From: Escherichia coli | GTDB taxonomy: Bacteria > Pseudomonadota > Gammaproteobacteria > Enterobacterales > Enterobacteriaceae | DNA: 64,000 nt | Strand: one strand, 5' to 3' | Assembly (NCBI RefSeq): GCF_022846255.1 | Contig: NZ_AP025682.1 | Part shown: positions 52,301-61,300 of the stretch, piece by piece | Layout: each line of letters starts with the position of its first letter | Position numbering within the stretch: the first letter of the stretch is position 1 | Made by a program: the position numbers

Positions 52301-55300
52301 TCCGCGCGGCTGTGCGGCAGTATATGGCTGAAGTGGAGTCCGGCGTTTACCCGGGCGAAGAACACAGTTTCCATTAAGGAGTGACGTTGTGTTAATTATC
52401 GAAACCCTGCCGCTGCTGCGTCAGCAAATTCGCCGCCTGCGTATGGAAGGTAAGCGCGTGGCGCTGGTGCCCACCATGGGTAACCTGCACGATGGCCATA
52501 TGAAGCTGGTCGACGAAGCCAAAGCCCGCGCCGATGTGGTCGTCGTCAGTATTTTCGTTAACCCGATGCAGTTTGACCGCCCGGAAGATCTGGCACGTTA
52601 TCCACGGACCTTGCAAGAGGACTGCGAAAAGCTGAACAAACGTAAAGTGGATTTAGTTTTCGCGCCTTCGGTAAAAGAGATCTACCCGAACGGTACAGAA
52701 ACCCACACCTATGTTGATGTTCCCGGTCTTTCCACCATGCTGGAAGGTGCCAGCCGTCCGGGACATTTTCGCGGCGTTTCGACTATCGTCAGCAAGCTGT
52801 TCAATCTGGTCCAGCCGGACATCGCCTGCTTCGGTGAAAAAGATTTTCAGCAACTGGCGCTGATCCGCAAAATGGTTGCCGATATGGGCTTCGATATTGA
52901 GATTGTCGGAGTGCCGATTATGCGCGCGAAAGACGGTCTGGCGCTCAGTTCCCGTAACGGCTATCTGACGGCGGAACAACGTAAAATTGCGCCGGGTCTC
53001 TACAAAGTCTTAAGTTCAATTGCCGACAAATTGCAGGCTGGCGAACGGGATCTCGATGAAATTATTGCTATTGCCGGGCAAGAACTGAATGAAAAAGGTT
53101 TCCGCTCCGATGATATTCAGATTCGCGATGCCGACACATTGCTGGAGGTCTCTGAAAACAGCAAACGCGCAGTGATTCTGGTAGCCGCCTGGCTTGGCGA
53201 TGCTCGCCTGATCGACAACAAACTGGTCGAACTGGCGTAATGCTTAACTGGCGCTACGGCTGATGGCGCCAGTTATTCATTGCCACGTTATCTGTAAGCA
53301 ATTATTCATATCGTAGACTACTTAGTTAGAGTTAATTAGCTTATCAATCTCTGCAAGAGATAAAGCTGTCACCTCTGCAACGTCTTCCCGAGACATTCCT
53401 TTACTCAGAAGACGCAGGGCGAATTCCTGACTTACTTCCTGTCTTCCCTGCTGAATCCCCTTCTCTTCAAACCACTGCGCCAGCGTCATCATAGACTCCC
53501 CTCCCGTTTCCCTGTCTCTCACCACACCATAAAACAAATCCGCTTGTTCAGTATGACCGCGTTGCAGCATATAGTTTTGCATGGCAACTAACTGACTTCC
53601 GCTAGTGTACCCTTCGTCAATCAGCGTGACCAGTTGCTCCAGCAATAACATTAAGTCGCGCTGGCGAATATGTTTTTGCAGCAGTTCGAGAATCGCAATC
53701 CGCCGATGTTGCATGATTTCGTCATCCGGTGTGATAGTGATATCCACCAGCGGGAAAGGACTGTTATAGACGCGTCGCGCCAGCTCCGGCGAGTAAAACA
53801 TATCAAACCAGCACATTGAGAGCGGATAAGGTGTGGCCTCGCCCTGATAAAACAGAATCGGCACCACCAGCGGCAGCTTATCGTGATCCGCCTCCAGATG
53901 CCGGTGCATGGCGGCAATGGCATAGCGCATCATGCGAAAGGTCATTTTCTTATCCGGCTTGCTTTGATGTTCAATCACCACATGCAAATAACCGGGATTG
54001 CCCTGCATTTGTACGGAATAGAGTACGTCCGTGCTGTGTCCTTTCAGGCTTTCCTCAATAAAACTCCCCGACTCAAGATGCAGCGTGTCGAGGTCACACA
54101 GTTCGCGTAGCTCCGCTGGCAAATGGATATCCAGAAAGTCGCGAGCCGTTTCCGCATGCATTAAAAATTGTTTAAACACCGCATCATGCGGTGTGGTACT
54201 CGGTGCATCCATCTTCCCTGCCTTCCGTGTTGTCTTGCGTGAAGGCAGTATCCAGTCAAGGTGTGCCGTCGTCAGCCGCCTCTTTAGTGTTTACCGAGCA
54301 GCGTTCAGATAAATTTCAATTGGTTACAGGCGTTACATGGCACGCTTCGGCACGGTACGCAAACTGCTGCTGCAAATGCCGTCAGATGAGTAGACACTAA
54401 ACAAAAATCGGGCAATACTGCGTGAGAATTTCCTCAAAGCAGGCATCGCCTGCTTCGTTAACGACAGGGTAGAAAGGTAGAAGTTATGATTCGCACGATG
54501 CTGCAGGGCAAACTCCACCGCGTGAAAGTGACTCATGCGGACCTGCACTATGAAGGTTCTTGCGCCATTGATCAGGATTTTCTTGACGCAGCCGGTATTC
54601 TCGAAAACGAAGCCATTGATATCTGGAATGTCACCAACGGCAAGCGTTTCTCCACCTATGCCATCGCGGCAGAACGCGGTTCGAGAATTATTTCTGTTAA
54701 CGGTGCGGCAGCCCACTGCGCCAGCGTCGGCGATATTGTCATCATCGCCAGCTTCGTTACCATGCCAGATGAAGAAGCTCGCACCTGGCGACCCAACGTC
54801 GCCTATTTTGAAGGCGACAACGAAATGAAACGTACCGCGAAAGCGATTCCGGTACAGGTTGCCTGATTGTTATCCCTGCGGCTGGTTACTCACCAGCCGC
54901 GACATCGTCTCCAGCGAATCCGTTCTTAAGATATAAAGTCGTTTTAGTAACAACGGATTATCCCCCGGTTTTACTTTGCCTTTCATGGTCGTCACCGCCA
55001 GGTGAAATCCGGCTTCTTTTGCTGCCTTCACGGCTTTGTCATTAAATCCGCCAAATGGATAAGAAAGATACAAAACATGTGGATTAAATTGCGCCAGAGC
55101 GCGGCGTGAACGTGCAAAATCAAACAGAATATTGTGCTCACTACGGCTCAGCAATATAGGCCGCCGATAACCATCTATCCGATGCAAAAAATGAGTATGT
55201 GACTGGAAATCAAATATATCGCGAATTTCGTTAAGTTCAGAAACGCTCATAAATTGCAGCGATTTTGGGTTCCATTTCTGCGGGTGACGTTTGATGCGCG

Positions 55301-58300: not shown

Positions 58301-61300
58301 TAAAAATCACCCGCTTCGACCTGCAAATCGATTCCACGAAGCGCCTGAACGCCGCCTGGATAGGTTTTTTTAAGCTGTTGAAGTTCCAGTGCAATGGTCA
58401 TAAATTTTTACTTACCTTACGTTCTTACACTTTATCTGTGGTTTAAATCGTCCCGGAGTTGCCCTATATTAGCCAAACGTAATTATTTGGTTACAGGTCG
58501 TTAACCTCCATGAAAGACATAGATACACTCATCAGCAACAATGCACTATGGTCAAAAATGCTGGTGGAAGAGGATCCCGGGTTTTTTGAGAAACTGGCAC
58601 AAGCGCAAAAACCGCGCTTTCTATGGATTGGATGTTCCGACAGTCGCGTTCCTGCAGAACGTTTAACCGGTCTTGAGCCGGGCGAACTCTTTGTTCACCG
58701 TAATGTTGCTAACCTGGTCATTCACACCGACCTGAACTGCCTTTCCGTGGTTCAGTATGCAGTGGATGTACTCGAAGTTGAACACATTATTATCTGTGGC
58801 CACTACGGTTGCGGCGGCGTACAAGCCGCAGTTGAAAACCCAGAACTGGGGCTTATCAACAACTGGCTGCTGCATATCCGCGATATCTGGTTCAAACATA
58901 GCTCATTGCTCGGCGAAATGCCGCAAGAGCGCCGTCTGGATACCTTGTGTGAACTGAACGTCATGGAACAGGTGTATAACCTGGGCCACTCCACCATTAT
59001 GCAATCAGCGTGGAAACGCGGGCAGAAAGTTACCATTCACGGCTGGGCCTACGGCATTCACGACGGCTTGCTGCGTGATCTGGATGTCACAGCGACTAAC
59101 CGCGAAACCCTTGAGCAACGTTACCGTCACGGGATCTCCAACCTCAAGCTGAAACACGCCAACCACAAATAAAAATGCCATGCCGGATGCAACACATCCG
59201 GCAACTTCACACTTACTCGTCCAGCAGAATCACTTTGCCGATATACGGCAGATGACGGTAACGCTGTGCGTAATCAATGCCGTAACCCACCACAAACTCA
59301 TCCGGGATCGAGAAACCGATAAATTCTACCGGGACGTTCACTTCACGACGGGACGGTTTATCCAGCAGCGTACAAATCGCCAACGACTTCGGTTCGCGCA
59401 GGCTTAAGATCTCACGCACTTTCGACAGTGTATTCCCCGAGTCGATGATATCTTCAACAATCAGCACGTCCTTGCCACGGATATCTTCATCCAGATCTTT
59501 GAGGATTTTCACATCACGGGTGGTGGACATGCCGCTACCGTAGCTGGAGGCGGTCATAAAGTCGACTTCATGAGATACCTGAACTTCACGGCACAGGTCC
59601 GCCATAAACATAAATGAGCCACGCAGCAGACCCACCAGCACCATATCGCTGCCGCTGTCTTTGTAACGCTCAGTAATCTGACGACCCAGTTCGGCGATAC
59701 GCGCTTTAATCTCCGCTTCGGGGATCATTACTTCTACAGTATGTTTCATATCTATAACCATATGATTTAAAAACAAATCACTTCGCACGGGCAGGTTTTG
59801 GCACCGCAACAAAGCGCAAGACACGCAGTATACCAGTAAAACTATTCATTCGCGGAATCTGTTAATAAAGCTCGAATTGTGATGACGATCACACATGTTA
59901 AAACCTATAATTAATTGCTACTAAAATATTAATGAATTGAAATGGTGTCTCTTTATGGCAATTAACAATACCGGCTCGCGGCGATTACTCGTCACGCTAA
60001 CAGCCCTTTTTGCAGCGCTTTGCGGGCTGTATCTACTCATTGGCGGAGGCTGGCTGGTCGCGATTGGCGGCTCCTGGTACTACCCTATCGCTGGCCTTGT
60101 GATGCTCAGCGTCGCCTGGATGCTGTGGCGCAGTAAACGCGCCGCGCTTTGGCTGTACGCAGCCCTGCTGCTCGGCACTATGATTTGGGGCGTCTGGGAA
60201 GTTGGTTTCGACTTCTGGGCGCTGACTCCGCGCAGCGACATTCTGGTCTTCTTCGGCATCTGGCTGATCCTGCCGTTTGTCTGGCGTCGCCTGGTCATTC
60301 CTGCCAGCGGCGCAGTTGCCGCACTGGTGGTCGCACTGCTGATTAGCGGTGGTATCCTGACCTGGGCCGGATTTAACGATCCGCAGGAAATCAGCGGCAC
60401 CTTAAGCGCCGATACCACGCCAGCAGAAGCCATCTCCCCCGTTGCCGATCAGGACTGGCCTGCCTATGGTCGCAATCAGGAAGGTCAACGCTTTTCACCT
60501 CTGAAACAAATTAACGCTGATAACGTCCACAAGCTGAAAGAAGCCTGGGTGTTCCGTACTGGCGATGTGAAGCAGCCGAACGATCCGGGCGAAATCACCA
60601 ATGAAGTGACGCCAATTAAAGTGGGCGACACCCTTTACCTGTGTACCGCGCACCAACGTCTGTTTGCGCTGGATGCCGCCAGCGGCAAAGAGAAATGGCA
60701 TTACGATCCTGAGCTGAAAACCAACGAGTCCTTCCAGCATGTAACCTGCCGTGGCGTCTCTTATCATGAAGCCAAAGCAGAAACGGCCTCGCCAGAAGTG
60801 ATGGCGGATTGCCCGCGTCGTATCATTCTTCCGGTCAATGATGGTCGTCTGATTGCAATTAACGCTGAAAACGGCAAGCTGTGCGAAACCTTCGCCAATA
60901 AAGGCGTGCTCAATCTGCAAAGCAATATGCCGGACACCAAACCGGGTCTGTATGAGCCGACTTCGCCGCCGATTATCACCGATAAAACCATCGTGATGGC
61001 CGGTTCAGTCACCGACAACTTCTCAACCCGCGAAACGTCTGGCGTGATCCGTGGTTTTGATGTTAACACCGGGGAGCTGCTGTGGGCTTTTGATCCGGGC
61101 GCGAAAGATCCGAATGCGATCCCGTCTGACGAACACACCTTTACCTTTAACTCACCAAACTCGTGGGCACCAGCGGCCTATGACGCGAAGCTGGATCTGG
61201 TCTATCTGCCGATGGGCGTGACCACGCCAGATATCTGGGGCGGTAATCGCACACCGGAACAGGAACGTTATGCCAGCTCGATTCTGGCGCTGAATGCCAC

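What the first reader, a model, noticed from the sequence alone, without database searches (positions are those of the whole stretch)
54870..58401. yadG-yadH-yadI-yadE: ABC-2 exporter, orphan PTS EIIA and secreted polysaccharide deacetylase of unknown function
Four co-directional genes encode an ABC-2 ATPase/permease pair, a stand-alone EIIA(Man)-like protein with no cognate EIIB/C/D nearby, and a signal-peptide-bearing NodB-type deacetylase. The combination suggests export and modification of a glycan with PTS-linked regulation, but I know of no defined substrate. A hairpin lies in the yadH-yadI spacer (about 56670-56700).
Basis: inference. Interest (0 to 1): 0.4.

Follow-up and report, generated by a model that had tools for sequence, protein, structure and literature searches.

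The report
E. coli yadG-yadH-yadI-yadE gene row
These are four already-annotated core E. coli genes (an ABC-2 exporter pair, a lone sugar-phosphotransferase subunit and a periplasmic sugar-deacetylase) that sit side by side but look like three separately controlled units, not one glycan export-and-modification pathway.

Summary
Window 54870-58401 (minus strand) carries yadG, yadH, yadI and yadE, present in 5424 of 5426 complete E. coli genomes. The hairpin lies at 56672-56701.

The one-module interpretation is not supported.
- A strong hairpin follows the yadH stop in 95% of 77 loci, with 73 different sequences. This fits an intrinsic terminator for yadGH.
- Just downstream lies TTGA-N6-TCA, with TAnnnT exactly where a class II CRP promoter needs it (59 of 61 species). 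This would be yadI's own promoter.
- yadE has its own conserved extended -10 (TGCTACAAT). It persists in species that lack yadI.
- yadI is missing in 8 of 80 Enterobacteriaceae species.
- Outside Enterobacteriaceae and Thorsellia, YadE homologues are not next to yadGH.

YadE has a signal peptide, two SH3b domains and a PgaB/IcaB/PplD-type CE4 domain with every catalytic residue invariant. YadI keeps the phospho-histidine, scores below the AgaF cut-off, and has no EIIB/C/D within 20 kb. YadGH is a highly conserved ABC-2 exporter. No substrate is known for any of them.

In passing: a 1.4 kb divergence island covers yadI' to yadE, and YadE paralogues in Plesiomonas sit next to lipid A genes.

Ordinary, already-annotated genes; low to moderate interest.

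The parts
57475..58401 (-). yadG: ABC transporter ATP-binding subunit, 308 aa. Walker A GPNGAGKST, signature LSGGMKRR, Walker B LLILDEPT, plus a C-terminal extension of about 80 aa.
   Evidence: ORF; Pfam ABC_tran 2.8e-33; best NCBIfam DrrA subfamily 238.8 bits, below cut-off 312; closest solved NBDs are ABCA3/4/7/1 at 2e-66 to 2e-56; 92-100% identical across 80 Enterobacteriaceae species.
56708..57478 (-). yadH: ABC-2 type permease, 256 aa. Its start overlaps the yadG stop by 4 nt (translational coupling).
   Evidence: ABC2_membrane 5.9e-40; NCBIfam PRK15066 subfamily 449.9 bits, above cut-off 225; weak sequence matches to Wzm (6oih, 6m96; 5e-06) and TarG (6jbh; 0.004).
56668..56701 (-). Intrinsic-terminator-like hairpin 6 nt after the yadH stop. 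Stem 56701..56690 / 56683..56672 (12 bp), loop GGAUUU, then UUUU 56671..56668.
   Evidence: A hairpin is present at this position in 95% of 77 loci with 73 different sequences, mean z -4.2; 54 of 77 have >=4 T in the next 10 nt.
56655..56670 (-). CRP-like site TTTGA-CGGCTA-TCACC, overlapping the terminator's U-tract. Its centre lies between 56663 and 56662.
   Evidence: Read. TTGA-N6-TCA is conserved in 61 of 72 species (0.8% of shuffled spacers). The Reg-Seq preprint reports an activator site predicted to be CRP upstream of yadI.
56628..56633 (-). -10 hexamer TAGACT of the yadI promoter, at -12..-7 if the CRP-like site is centred at -41.5. Predicted start near 56621; Shine-Dalgarno AAGGAGG at 56616..56610.
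   Evidence: TAnnnT falls at exactly this offset in 59 of 61 species; conserved alignment columns.
56163..56603 (-). yadI: stand-alone PTS EIIA of the mannose family, 146 aa. His9 is the predicted phosphorylation site, with Asp66 alongside. The C-terminal motif LWHQQQKNPPF is conserved.
   Evidence: EIIA-man 9e-31; AgaF model 106.1 bits, below cut-off 130; aligns to IIA-Man 1pdo with His and Asp conserved; 71 of 72 orthologues intact, with H9, D10 and D66 invariant.
56132..56140 (-). yadE promoter: extended -10 TG-C-TACAAT, with C at -13 as is typical of sigma-S-recognised promoters.
   Evidence: Read. TTTTG(C/T)TACAAT is conserved upstream of yadE in nearly all of 80 species, including those without yadI. 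Reg-Seq found an active start site with RpoS-dependent expression.
56043..56099 (-). yadE signal peptide (aa 1-19, cleavage predicted after VSA). No lipobox cysteine.
   Evidence: Sequence; low pLDDT N-terminal helix in the model.
55614..56033 (-). yadE tandem SH3b-like domains (aa ~23-82 and ~100-162).
   Evidence: All-beta domains in the AF2 model, mean pLDDT 90.9; Foldseek matches to tandem-SH3b NlpC/P60 proteins 3npf, 4r0k, 3h41 and 6biq, and to SlpA; Pfam SH3_3 hits 20 of 28 family N-termini, best 1.2e-10, E. coli's own 0.016.
54900..55598 (-). yadE CE4 (NodB-homology) de-N-acetylase domain of the PgaB/IcaB/PplD type (aa ~168-400). H176 predicted acid, D239 predicted base, D240/H301/H306 predicted metal triad.
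   Evidence: Pfam; NCBIfam PgaB 1.2e-30 and IcaB 8e-29, both below cut-off; PDB sequence hits IcaB 4wcj, PplD 6dq3 and PgaB; Foldseek TM 0.88 to PplD and 0.85 to IcaB; these residues are invariant in 37 homologues at 27-87% identity.
55100..56500 (.). Divergence island: 67-80% nucleotide identity to other Escherichia lineages, against 94-100% in the flanks.

Best explanation
The row is three neighbouring but separately controlled units of known protein families, kept together mainly by inherited gene order.

(1) yadG-yadH is a translationally coupled two-gene operon. It encodes a highly conserved, housekeeping-type ABC-2 exporter with ABCA/DrrA-like nucleotide-binding domains. Transcription is largely stopped by an intrinsic terminator right after yadH. 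Its most likely cargo is an envelope lipid or lipid-linked molecule. That is an inference, resting on the published link with the Mla system.

(2) yadI has a class II CRP-dependent promoter that starts within the terminator's U-tract. It encodes a stand-alone EIIA(Man) paralogue of AgaF with an intact phospho-histidine. It most likely takes phosphate from HPr and passes it to a mannose-family EIIB encoded elsewhere, or to a regulatory target. It is dispensable and has been lost several times.

(3) yadE has its own extended -10, sigma-S-type promoter. It encodes a soluble periplasmic enzyme: two SH3b domains that probably anchor it to peptidoglycan, and a metal-dependent CE4 domain that probably removes N-acetyl groups from GlcNAc in a cell-envelope glycan.

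Shown here: the gene content, the domains, the catalytic residues, the conservation of the regulatory signals and the synteny pattern. Inferred: that the signals function as stated, and every substrate.
For: Identity and ubiquity.

Terminator: (95% of 77 loci, 73 distinct stems, mean z -4.2).

yadI promoter: (TTGA-N6-TCA in 61 of 72 species; TAnnnT at the class II offset in 59 of 61; 0.8% in shuffles). The Reg-Seq preprint PMC12133099 reports an active yadI start site and a CRP-predicted activator site.

yadE promoter: (conserved TGYTACAAT, also in yadI-less species). Reg-Seq reports an active start site and RpoS-dependent expression.

yadGH as a two-gene operon with stable expression in Dickeya: PMC3102694.

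yadI variable: absent in 8 of 80 species, two of which keep 3' remnants, and absent in Thorsellia. Insertions of 1.6-5.8 kb between yadH and yadI in L012, L016 and L021.

Unequal evolutionary rates: YadG/H 89-100% identical, YadE 75-88%, YadI 62-92%. dN/dS is 0.003-0.08, so all four are under purifying selection.

YadE anatomy.

YadI.

No PTS permease nearby.

YadE homologues unlinked to yadGH elsewhere.

YadH-Mla link: Babu 2018, as cited in PMC11131202 and bioRxiv 10.1101/2024.04.10.588480.
Against: I looked at no transcript data. The promoters and the terminator rest on sequence conservation plus one reporter-based preprint.

The terminator's U-tract is only 4 U in E. coli, so read-through from yadGH into yadI-yadE could be substantial.

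No terminator is evident after yadI, so yadI transcripts probably run into yadE.

The yadGH-yadE adjacency survives in Thorsellia without yadI. That is also what a functional link would predict.

The Reg-Seq authors did not detect CRP by mass spectrometry at the yadI promoter.

No substrate is known for any of the three units. The genome scan returned only the best 80 of 383 loci, all Enterobacteriaceae, so synteny outside that family rests on about ten loci.
Confidence: 0.6

Rival explanations
1. The four genes form one functional module: YadGH exports a glycan, YadE de-N-acetylates it in the periplasm (as PgaB does for PNAG), and phospho-YadI adjusts the transporter to sugar supply (as EIIA-Glc does with MalK).
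For: The genes are co-directional and tightly spaced. The yadGH-yadE adjacency is kept in all 80 Enterobacteriaceae species except one rearranged locus, and in Thorsellia. YadH's only solved relatives by sequence are the polysaccharide and teichoic-acid exporters Wzm and TarG. YadE's closest solved relatives all act on exported GlcNAc polymers.
Against: There are three conserved, separate sets of transcription signals. yadI has been lost repeatedly with yadGH and yadE retained. No glycosyltransferase or synthase gene lies within +-20 kb. YadE homologues in Plesiomonas, Providencia, Pasteurellaceae, Serratia and Bacillaceae have no adjacent ABC-2 transporter or EIIA. YadGH evolves 3-10 times more slowly than YadI and YadE. 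The Wzm/TarG matches are weak (5e-06, 0.004).
Confidence: 0.1
2. A looser link through outer-membrane lipid and LPS homeostasis. YadGH moves a lipid or glycolipid (working alongside Mla). YadE modifies an LPS- or lipid-A-proximal sugar. The two are neighbours because they serve the same envelope process. yadI is an unrelated insertion.
For: YadH together with Mla is reported to preserve outer-membrane lipid asymmetry, and a Burkholderia homologue lies downstream of the mla genes (secondary citations). Hu et al. 2009 placed YadE with the Rfa/Lpx/Kds pathways and found aggravating genetic interactions for the yadE deletion (PMC2672614). In Plesiomonas one YadE paralogue lies 150 nt downstream of lpxM, which scores 465 bits against a cut-off of 336. 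The other paralogue lies beside a PAP2 phosphatase and an EptA/MCR-3-like lipid A phosphoethanolamine transferase, which scores 636 bits against a cut-off of 500. In Providencia a lipid-modifying cluster lies next to it. In Thorsellia, mlaA and mipA lie within 5 kb.
Against: Only three of about ten non-syntenic loci show lipid-related neighbours. The three Pasteurellaceae-type loci show ttcA and mukFEB instead. SH3b domains point to peptidoglycan, not LPS. Bacillaceae homologues with the same architecture have no LPS. I could not read the primary Babu 2018 paper.
Confidence: 0.2
3. The hairpin is not a terminator. It could instead be a REP-like repeat, a 3'-end mRNA stabiliser, or an attenuator that senses a signal to control yadI-yadE.
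For: The U-tract is short (UUUU then G) in E. coli. 23 of 77 loci have fewer than 4 T in the 10 nt after the stem. The simple terminator scan did not list it.
Against: It starts 6 nt after the stop codon in every species. The stem sequence changes freely while the pairing is kept, which is typical of terminators and not of REP families. There is no Rfam match and no alternative conserved pairing. A complete promoter follows immediately.
Confidence: 0.1

Closest known systems
PgaB (N-terminal domain), IcaB and PplD: CE4 de-N-acetylases of exported GlcNAc polymers
   Same: Same CE4 subgroup by sequence and fold. The same His / Asp-Asp / H-x4-H catalytic arrangement is fully conserved. All are exported enzymes.
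   Different: YadE scores below the PgaB and IcaB equivalog cut-offs (106 vs 322 bits; 101 vs 248 bits). It lacks PgaB's C-terminal PNAG-binding domain and its lipid anchor. It carries two N-terminal SH3b domains instead. It is not in a pga/ica-type synthase operon.
Bacillus BC0361 / BA0330 / BA0331: CE4 lipoproteins that help stabilise the cell wall
   Same: Top Foldseek hits for the full-length model (2e-18). Both have an N-terminal beta-rich domain followed by a PgaB-like CE4 domain.
   Different: 18-19% identity. Their N-terminal domain is not a tandem SH3b (overall rmsd >10 A). They are lipoproteins.
SddA (YibQ), the E. coli denuded-glycan-strand deacetylase
   Same: With PgaB, it is one of the three exported PgdA-fold proteins found in E. 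coli by the authors of PMC12440217. It is periplasmic.
   Different: SddA belongs to the divergent family PF04748, with a four-residue metal site, and sits in the envC operon. YadE belongs to PF01522 and remains uncharacterised.
AgaF / IIA-Man (ManX N-domain): PTS mannose-family EIIA
   Same: Same Pfam domain. The phospho-His (His9) and the neighbouring Asp are conserved. AgaF is the best NCBIfam match.
   Different: Below the AgaF equivalog cut-off (106 vs 130 bits). No adjacent EIIB/C/D. A YadI-specific conserved C-terminal motif, LWHQQQKNPPF.
ABC-2 exporters (DrrAB, NodIJ, Wzm-Wzt, TarGH) and eukaryotic ABCA lipid exporters
   Same: Separate ATPase and 6-TM ABC2_membrane permease genes that overlap. 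The NBD is most similar to ABCA3/4/7/1. The permease is weakly similar to Wzm and TarG.
   Different: Below every named equivalog or subfamily cut-off except the YadH-specific PRK15066. No biosynthetic genes lie nearby. The substrate is unknown.

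Membership tests
CE4 / NodB-homology metal-dependent deacetylase, PgaB/IcaB/PplD subgroup | Asp-Asp motif (TFDDG): catalytic base plus metal ligand | tested here: met
   [10 protein letters not shown] is present. D239 and D240 are invariant in 37 homologues and align with the motif in IcaB, PplD and PgaB.
CE4 / NodB-homology metal-dependent deacetylase, PgaB/IcaB/PplD subgroup | Two metal-binding histidines (H-x4-H in this subgroup) | tested here: met
   SHTHFLH is present. H301 and H306 are invariant and align to LHTYDLH of IcaB.
CE4 / NodB-homology metal-dependent deacetylase, PgaB/IcaB/PplD subgroup | N-terminal catalytic His in the Y-H motif (PgaB His55 equivalent; residue number recalled from memory) | tested here: met
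   LTYHHIL is present. H176 is invariant and Y175 is >=90% conserved. It aligns with YH in IcaB, PplD and AaPgaB.
CE4 / NodB-homology metal-dependent deacetylase, PgaB/IcaB/PplD subgroup | Distorted (beta/alpha) barrel fold | tested here: met
   AF2 model with mean pLDDT 90.9. Target-normalised TM-score 0.88 to PplD, 0.85 to IcaB and 0.76 to PgaB-N.
PgaB or IcaB equivalog (PNAG deacetylase) | Score above the curated NCBIfam cut-off, and location in a pga/ica synthase operon | tested here: not met
   106.4 bits vs cut-off 321.9 (PgaB); 100.9 vs 248.35 (IcaB). No pgaC/icaA-like gene within 20 kb.
CE4 deacetylase | Measurable metal-dependent deacetylase activity on a defined substrate | not testable with these tools
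   Needs purified protein. The literature searched reports no assay.
Bacterial SH3 (SH3b) cell-wall-binding domain | SH3b fold and a sequence match | tested here: met
   Pfam SH3_3 in 20 of 28 family members (best 1.2e-10; E. coli 0.016, below the gathering score). The profile matches the solved SH3b domains 2kyb, 2kt8 and 2krs. Foldseek matches tandem-SH3b NlpC/P60 proteins. Ligand binding was not tested.
PTS EIIA, mannose family | EIIA-man domain with the phosphorylatable His (IIA-Man His10) and the nearby Asp | tested here: met
   PF03610 at 9e-31. His9 and Asp66 align to IIA-Man and are invariant in 72 orthologues.
PTS EIIA, mannose family | Cognate EIIB/EIIC/EIID encoded with it | tested here: not met
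   No PTS gene within +-20 kb and none in any of the 80 related loci.
AgaF equivalog (GalNAc/GalN EIIA) | Score above the curated cut-off | tested here: not met
   106.1 bits vs cut-off 130.
PTS EIIA, mannose family | Phosphotransfer from HPr and on to an EIIB | not testable with these tools
   A biochemical assay is required.
ABC-2 type exporter | ABC ATPase with Walker A, signature and Walker B motifs, plus a separate ABC2_membrane permease | tested here: met
   The motifs can be read in the translation. Pfam ABC_tran and ABC2_membrane match. The two genes overlap by 4 nt.
ABC-2 type exporter | A defined substrate: membership of DrrAB, NodIJ, Wzm/Wzt or another named family | tested here: not met
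   All named models score below their cut-offs. Only the YadH-specific subfamily PRK15066 is met.
Single four-gene operon | One promoter, with no internal terminators or promoters | tested here: not met
   A conserved terminator follows yadH, and yadI and yadE have conserved promoters of their own. Separate active start sites are reported in PMC12133099. I examined no transcript data directly.
Rho-independent terminator | G+C-rich stem-loop followed by a U-tract just after a stop codon | tested here: met
   A 12-bp stem plus UUUU, conserved structurally in 95% of loci. The U-tract is short in E. coli, so efficiency is unknown.
Class II CRP-dependent promoter | CRP half-sites TGTGA-N6-TCACA centred near -41.5 relative to a -10 hexamer | tested here: met
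   The site is TTTGA-N6-TCACC (4/5 + 4/5). TAnnnT falls at -12..-7 in 59 of 61 species. CRP binding and dependence are not testable here, and Reg-Seq mass spectrometry did not recover CRP.

The most novel reading that the evidence does not exclude
YadE would be a second, still uncharacterised periplasmic de-N-acetylase of E. coli. It would be tethered to peptidoglycan by its SH3b pair and switched on by sigma-S and envelope stress. It would edit GlcNAc in an LPS- or lipid-A-proximal glycan or a peptidoglycan-linked glycan. It would work in the same outer-membrane homeostasis process as the neighbouring YadGH exporter. This would explain the published yadE-LPS and YadH-Mla genetic links, and the lpxM and eptA/pap2 neighbours of the Plesiomonas paralogues.
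Probability: 0.15. Interest if true: 0.55.

Novelty: already known. Interest (0 to 1): 0.25.

Why it matters
These are core 'y-ome' genes of the best-studied bacterium, and none has a known substrate.

What this analysis adds is practical. It argues against treating the four genes as one pathway. It gives testable regulatory maps: a terminator, a CRP class II promoter for yadI and a sigma-S-type promoter for yadE. It defines YadE as a catalytically intact SH3b-SH3b-CE4 enzyme, and so as one of only three exported PgdA-fold proteins in E. coli (PMC12440217). It also points to two concrete substrate classes to try: peptidoglycan and LPS-proximal GlcNAc.

If YadE or YadGH proved to act on LPS or outer-membrane lipids, that would bear on envelope remodelling and antibiotic permeability. 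As it stands, the locus is ordinary.

Tried and rejected
- Rfam scan of 54200-58700: only a chance snoRNA match (E = 0.3), so no known RNA element in the spacers.
- The simple promoter scan proposed TTGACG-16-AACAAT for yadI. I rejected it in favour of TAGACT, because AACAAT is not conserved across species and TAnnnT at the class II offset is.
- The ACGCTTTT/AAAAGCGT hairpin in the yadI-yadE spacer is not conserved elsewhere. I rejected it as a terminator; it overlaps the yadE -10.
- The 588-591 aa 'YadE' proteins looked like possible YadI-YadE fusions. They are stop-codon read-through into the antisense strand of panD.
- An ECA-specific role for YadE is weakened by full-length homologues in Pasteurellaceae and Bacillaceae, which to my recollection lack ECA.
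- The search for homologous proteins returned only relatives at >=81% identity. The genome-contig scan returned only Enterobacteriaceae. Synteny outside that family therefore had to come from 12 single look-ups.
- The Babu 2018 paper (YadH-Mla) is not held, so I used secondary citations only.
- dN/dS against Salmonella and Klebsiella was saturated, so I redid it within Escherichia.
- The full-length 'plasmid' hits are mislabelled chromosomes or megabase replicons.
- I did not attempt complex prediction for YadI-YadG. The tool returns no interface measures, and the orthologue set is too uniform.

Full report
**What is there**

Window 54870-58401 holds four minus-strand ORFs:
- yadG, 58401..57475, 308 aa
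- yadH, 57478..56708, 256 aa, overlapping yadG by 4 nt
- yadI, 56603..56163, 146 aa
- yadE, 56099..54870, 409 aa

RefSeq annotates them under these names. They lie between can (divergent from yadG) and panD (convergent on yadE). The 4.3 kb stretch is present at >=80% coverage in 5424 of 5426 complete E. coli genomes. Pfam matches are unambiguous: ABC_tran, ABC2_membrane, EIIA-man and Polysacc_deac_1. No PTS permease gene lies within +-20 kb.

**The hairpin**

On the transcribed strand the hairpin begins 6 nt after the yadH stop codon. It has a 12-bp stem and a 6-nt loop and is followed by UUUU. In this sequence alone it is not significant (z = -1.57 for the 104-nt spacer).

I fetched 80 loci, one per Enterobacteriaceae species, through a YadE alignment, plus a few others. 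I then folded the 50 nt after the yadH stop in 77 of them.
- 95% reach <= -18 kcal/mol, against 7% of control windows inside yadH.
- The mean z is -4.2.
- There are 73 different hairpin sequences.
- 54 of 77 have a T-rich tail.

A structure kept in place while its sequence drifts is what an intrinsic terminator looks like. There is no Rfam match.

**Two internal promoters**

Directly after the hairpin, the alignment of 72 yadI upstream regions shows TTGA-N6-TCA conserved in 61 species (0.8% of shuffles). A TAnnnT hexamer sits at exactly -12..-7 when that site is centred at -41.5, in 59 of those 61.

In the window these elements are TTTGA-CGGCTA-TCACC (56670..56655) and TAGACT (56633..56628). 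This is the geometry of a class II CRP-dependent promoter (established knowledge).

A Reg-Seq preprint independently reports an active yadI start site, strongest in stationary phase. It also reports an activator site that motif scanning assigns to CRP, although CRP was not recovered by mass spectrometry (PMC12133099).

Upstream of yadE, TTTTG(C/T)TACAAT is conserved in nearly all species, including those without yadI. It is an extended -10 with C at -13. In the window it is TGCTACAAT, 56140..56132. The same preprint reports an active yadE start site, RpoS-dependent expression and a repressor site relieved by salt or phenazine methosulfate.

In Dickeya, yadG-yadH are described as a two-gene operon with very stable expression (PMC3102694).

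Together these results define three units: yadGH, yadI and yadE. Read-through between them is possible, and I have no transcript data.

**Synteny**

The order hpt-can-yadG-yadH-yadI-yadE-panD-panC is nearly universal in Enterobacteriaceae. There are exceptions.
- yadI is absent in 8 of 80 species. Two of them still carry the 3' end of yadI as a remnant (L031, L064). Three are Kosakonia species.
- yadI is also absent in Thorsellia, where the order is can-yadG-yadH-yadE.
- Three species have 1.6-5.8 kb inserted between yadH and yadI.

Outside these groups, full-length YadE homologues lie elsewhere:
- Plesiomonas paralogue 1, downstream of lpxM
- Plesiomonas paralogue 2, beside pap2 and an eptA/mcr-3-like gene
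- Providencia, next to a lipid-modifying cluster
- Three Pasteurellaceae-type loci, between ttcA and mukFEB
- Serratia ureilytica, among fimbrial operons
- Bacillaceae, isolated

None has an ABC-2 transporter or an EIIA beside it. Protein identity to E. coli is 89-100% for YadG/H, 75-88% for YadE and 62-92% for YadI. All four are under purifying selection (dN/dS 0.003-0.08 within Escherichia).

**YadE**

The N-terminus is an SPase-I type signal peptide without cysteine, so YadE is a soluble periplasmic protein. It is not a lipoprotein, as stated in PMC11018118.

An AlphaFold model built on 37 homologues has mean pLDDT 90.9.
- Residues ~23-162 form two beta-rich domains. They match the tandem SH3b domains of NlpC/P60 hydrolases and of SlpA. 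Pfam SH3_3 hits 20 of 28 family N-termini.
- Residues ~168-400 match PplD (TM 0.88), IcaB (0.85) and PgaB-N (0.76), in line with the sequence searches.
- H176, D239, D240, H301, H306, D327 and R387 are invariant across 27-87% identity.

YadE scores well below the PgaB and IcaB equivalog cut-offs. It is a member of the CE4 PgaB/IcaB/PplD subgroup but not a PNAG deacetylase by these tests.

The same architecture occurs in Bacillaceae at 27-39% identity. With the SH3b domains, that makes peptidoglycan or a wall-linked glycan the most economical target.

The published genetic link of yadE to Kdo2-lipid A pathways (PMC2672614) and the Plesiomonas neighbours point instead to LPS. A 2025 paper lists PgaB, YadE and YibQ/SddA as the exported PgdA-fold proteins of E. 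coli and leaves YadE uncharacterised (PMC12440217).

**YadI**

YadI aligns with IIA-Man, with the phospho-histidine (His9) and Asp66 conserved. Both are invariant in 72 orthologues, 71 of which are intact. Its best named model is AgaF, but below the cut-off. A C-terminal motif, LWHQQQKNPPF, is conserved and specific to YadI.

The conserved CRP-type promoter fits a carbohydrate-related role. I infer that YadI is a spare or specialised phosphoryl carrier for a mannose-family EIIB encoded elsewhere. A regulatory role cannot be excluded.

**YadGH**

YadG carries the standard ABC motifs, and its NBD is closest to ABCA lipid exporters. YadH matches only Wzm and TarG, and weakly. The only curated model it meets is the YadH-specific subfamily PRK15066.

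Secondary sources state that YadH acts with Mla to preserve outer-membrane lipid asymmetry. They also state that a Burkholderia homologue lies downstream of the mla genes. I could not read the primary paper.

**Verdict**

The 'glycan export plus modification with PTS-linked regulation' reading is not supported. The genes are already known, and their families are ordinary. What remains unknown is the substrates.

The most interesting reading still open is an envelope-homeostasis link between YadGH and YadE, with probability about 0.15.

Noticed in passing
window 55100-56500 (3' half of yadI, spacer, 5' ~1 kb of yadE): Divergence island. Identity to other Escherichia lineages (E. whittamii, Escherichia sp. 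E1V33, and two genomes labelled E. coli) is 94-100% in hpt, can, yadG and panD, but 67-80% here. dS is 1.2-1.35 for yadE against 0.06-0.3 for the flanks, with dN/dS about 0.07. E. coli yadE is as far from other Escherichia yadE (79%) as from Citrobacter gillenii yadE (78.9%). Of 5426 complete E. coli genomes, about 5420 carry the window-type allele and 4 carry the other. It looks like an old replacement by recombination.
   Followed up: partly
L002 6892-9296; L092 7001-10576: Two YadE paralogues in Plesiomonas shigelloides sit next to lipid A genes. One is 150 nt downstream of lpxM. The other is followed by a PAP2 phosphatase and faces an EptA/MCR-3-like phosphoethanolamine transferase, in a region that also carries phage genes. 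This echoes the yadE-LPS genetic interactions in PMC2672614.
   Followed up: partly
window 54864-54872: The panD and yadE stop codons converge with only 3 nt between them and no terminator, so each transcript must run antisense into the other gene. Some E. coli have a yadE stop-codon change that gives 588-591 aa products reading antisense through panD (P0002, P0004).
   Followed up: partly
window 54500-55111; L095 4001-4613: About 30 conjugative IncF E. coli plasmids carry panD plus the last ~190-240 nt of yadE, next to panC-panB and a LacI/MFS/nucleoside-hydrolase cluster. The yadE breakpoint (~55050-55110) is close to the edge of the divergence island.
   Followed up: partly
window 53322-54212: rpnC (yadD), a recombination-promoting nuclease gene, lies on the opposite strand between panC and panD. 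In the 80 related loci it is found only in Escherichia, Pseudocitrobacter and one unnamed Enterobacteriaceae genome. It is therefore a lineage-specific insertion into the pan region.
   Followed up: no
L012, L016, L021 (between yadH and yadI): Insertions of 5.8, 1.6 and 5.3 kb between the yadH terminator and yadI in Citrobacter sp. On2M, an unnamed gut Enterobacteriaceae genome and Superficieibacter electus. Their content was not examined.
   Followed up: no
window 56163-56230 (YadI residues ~125-146): The C-terminal tail of YadI, beyond the EIIA-man domain, carries a conserved motif LWHQQQKNPPF (largely invariant in 72 orthologues). It could be a partner-binding tail.
   Followed up: no
window 58402-58509 (can-yadG intergenic): The 108-nt divergent promoter region is unusually conserved across genera (for example GCTAATATAGGG at >=90% in 65 species). 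It probably holds the can and yadG promoters and perhaps a shared regulator site.
   Followed up: no
P0008 (E. coli YadE variant): A 382-aa YadE variant has an in-frame 27-residue deletion (DEENT...AWLR, residues ~181-207) just after the catalytic His176, in a small cluster of E. coli sequences. Separately, yadE is reported as a pseudogene in Salmonella Typhimurium ST313 sublineage 2.2.
   Followed up: no
L050: A contig labelled 'Chryseobacterium sp. 18061' carries a typical Enterobacteriaceae hpt-can-yadGHIE-panDC locus, nearly identical in layout to 'Citrobacter sp. 18056' (L045) from the same project. It is probably a mislabelled or contaminated assembly.
   Followed up: no
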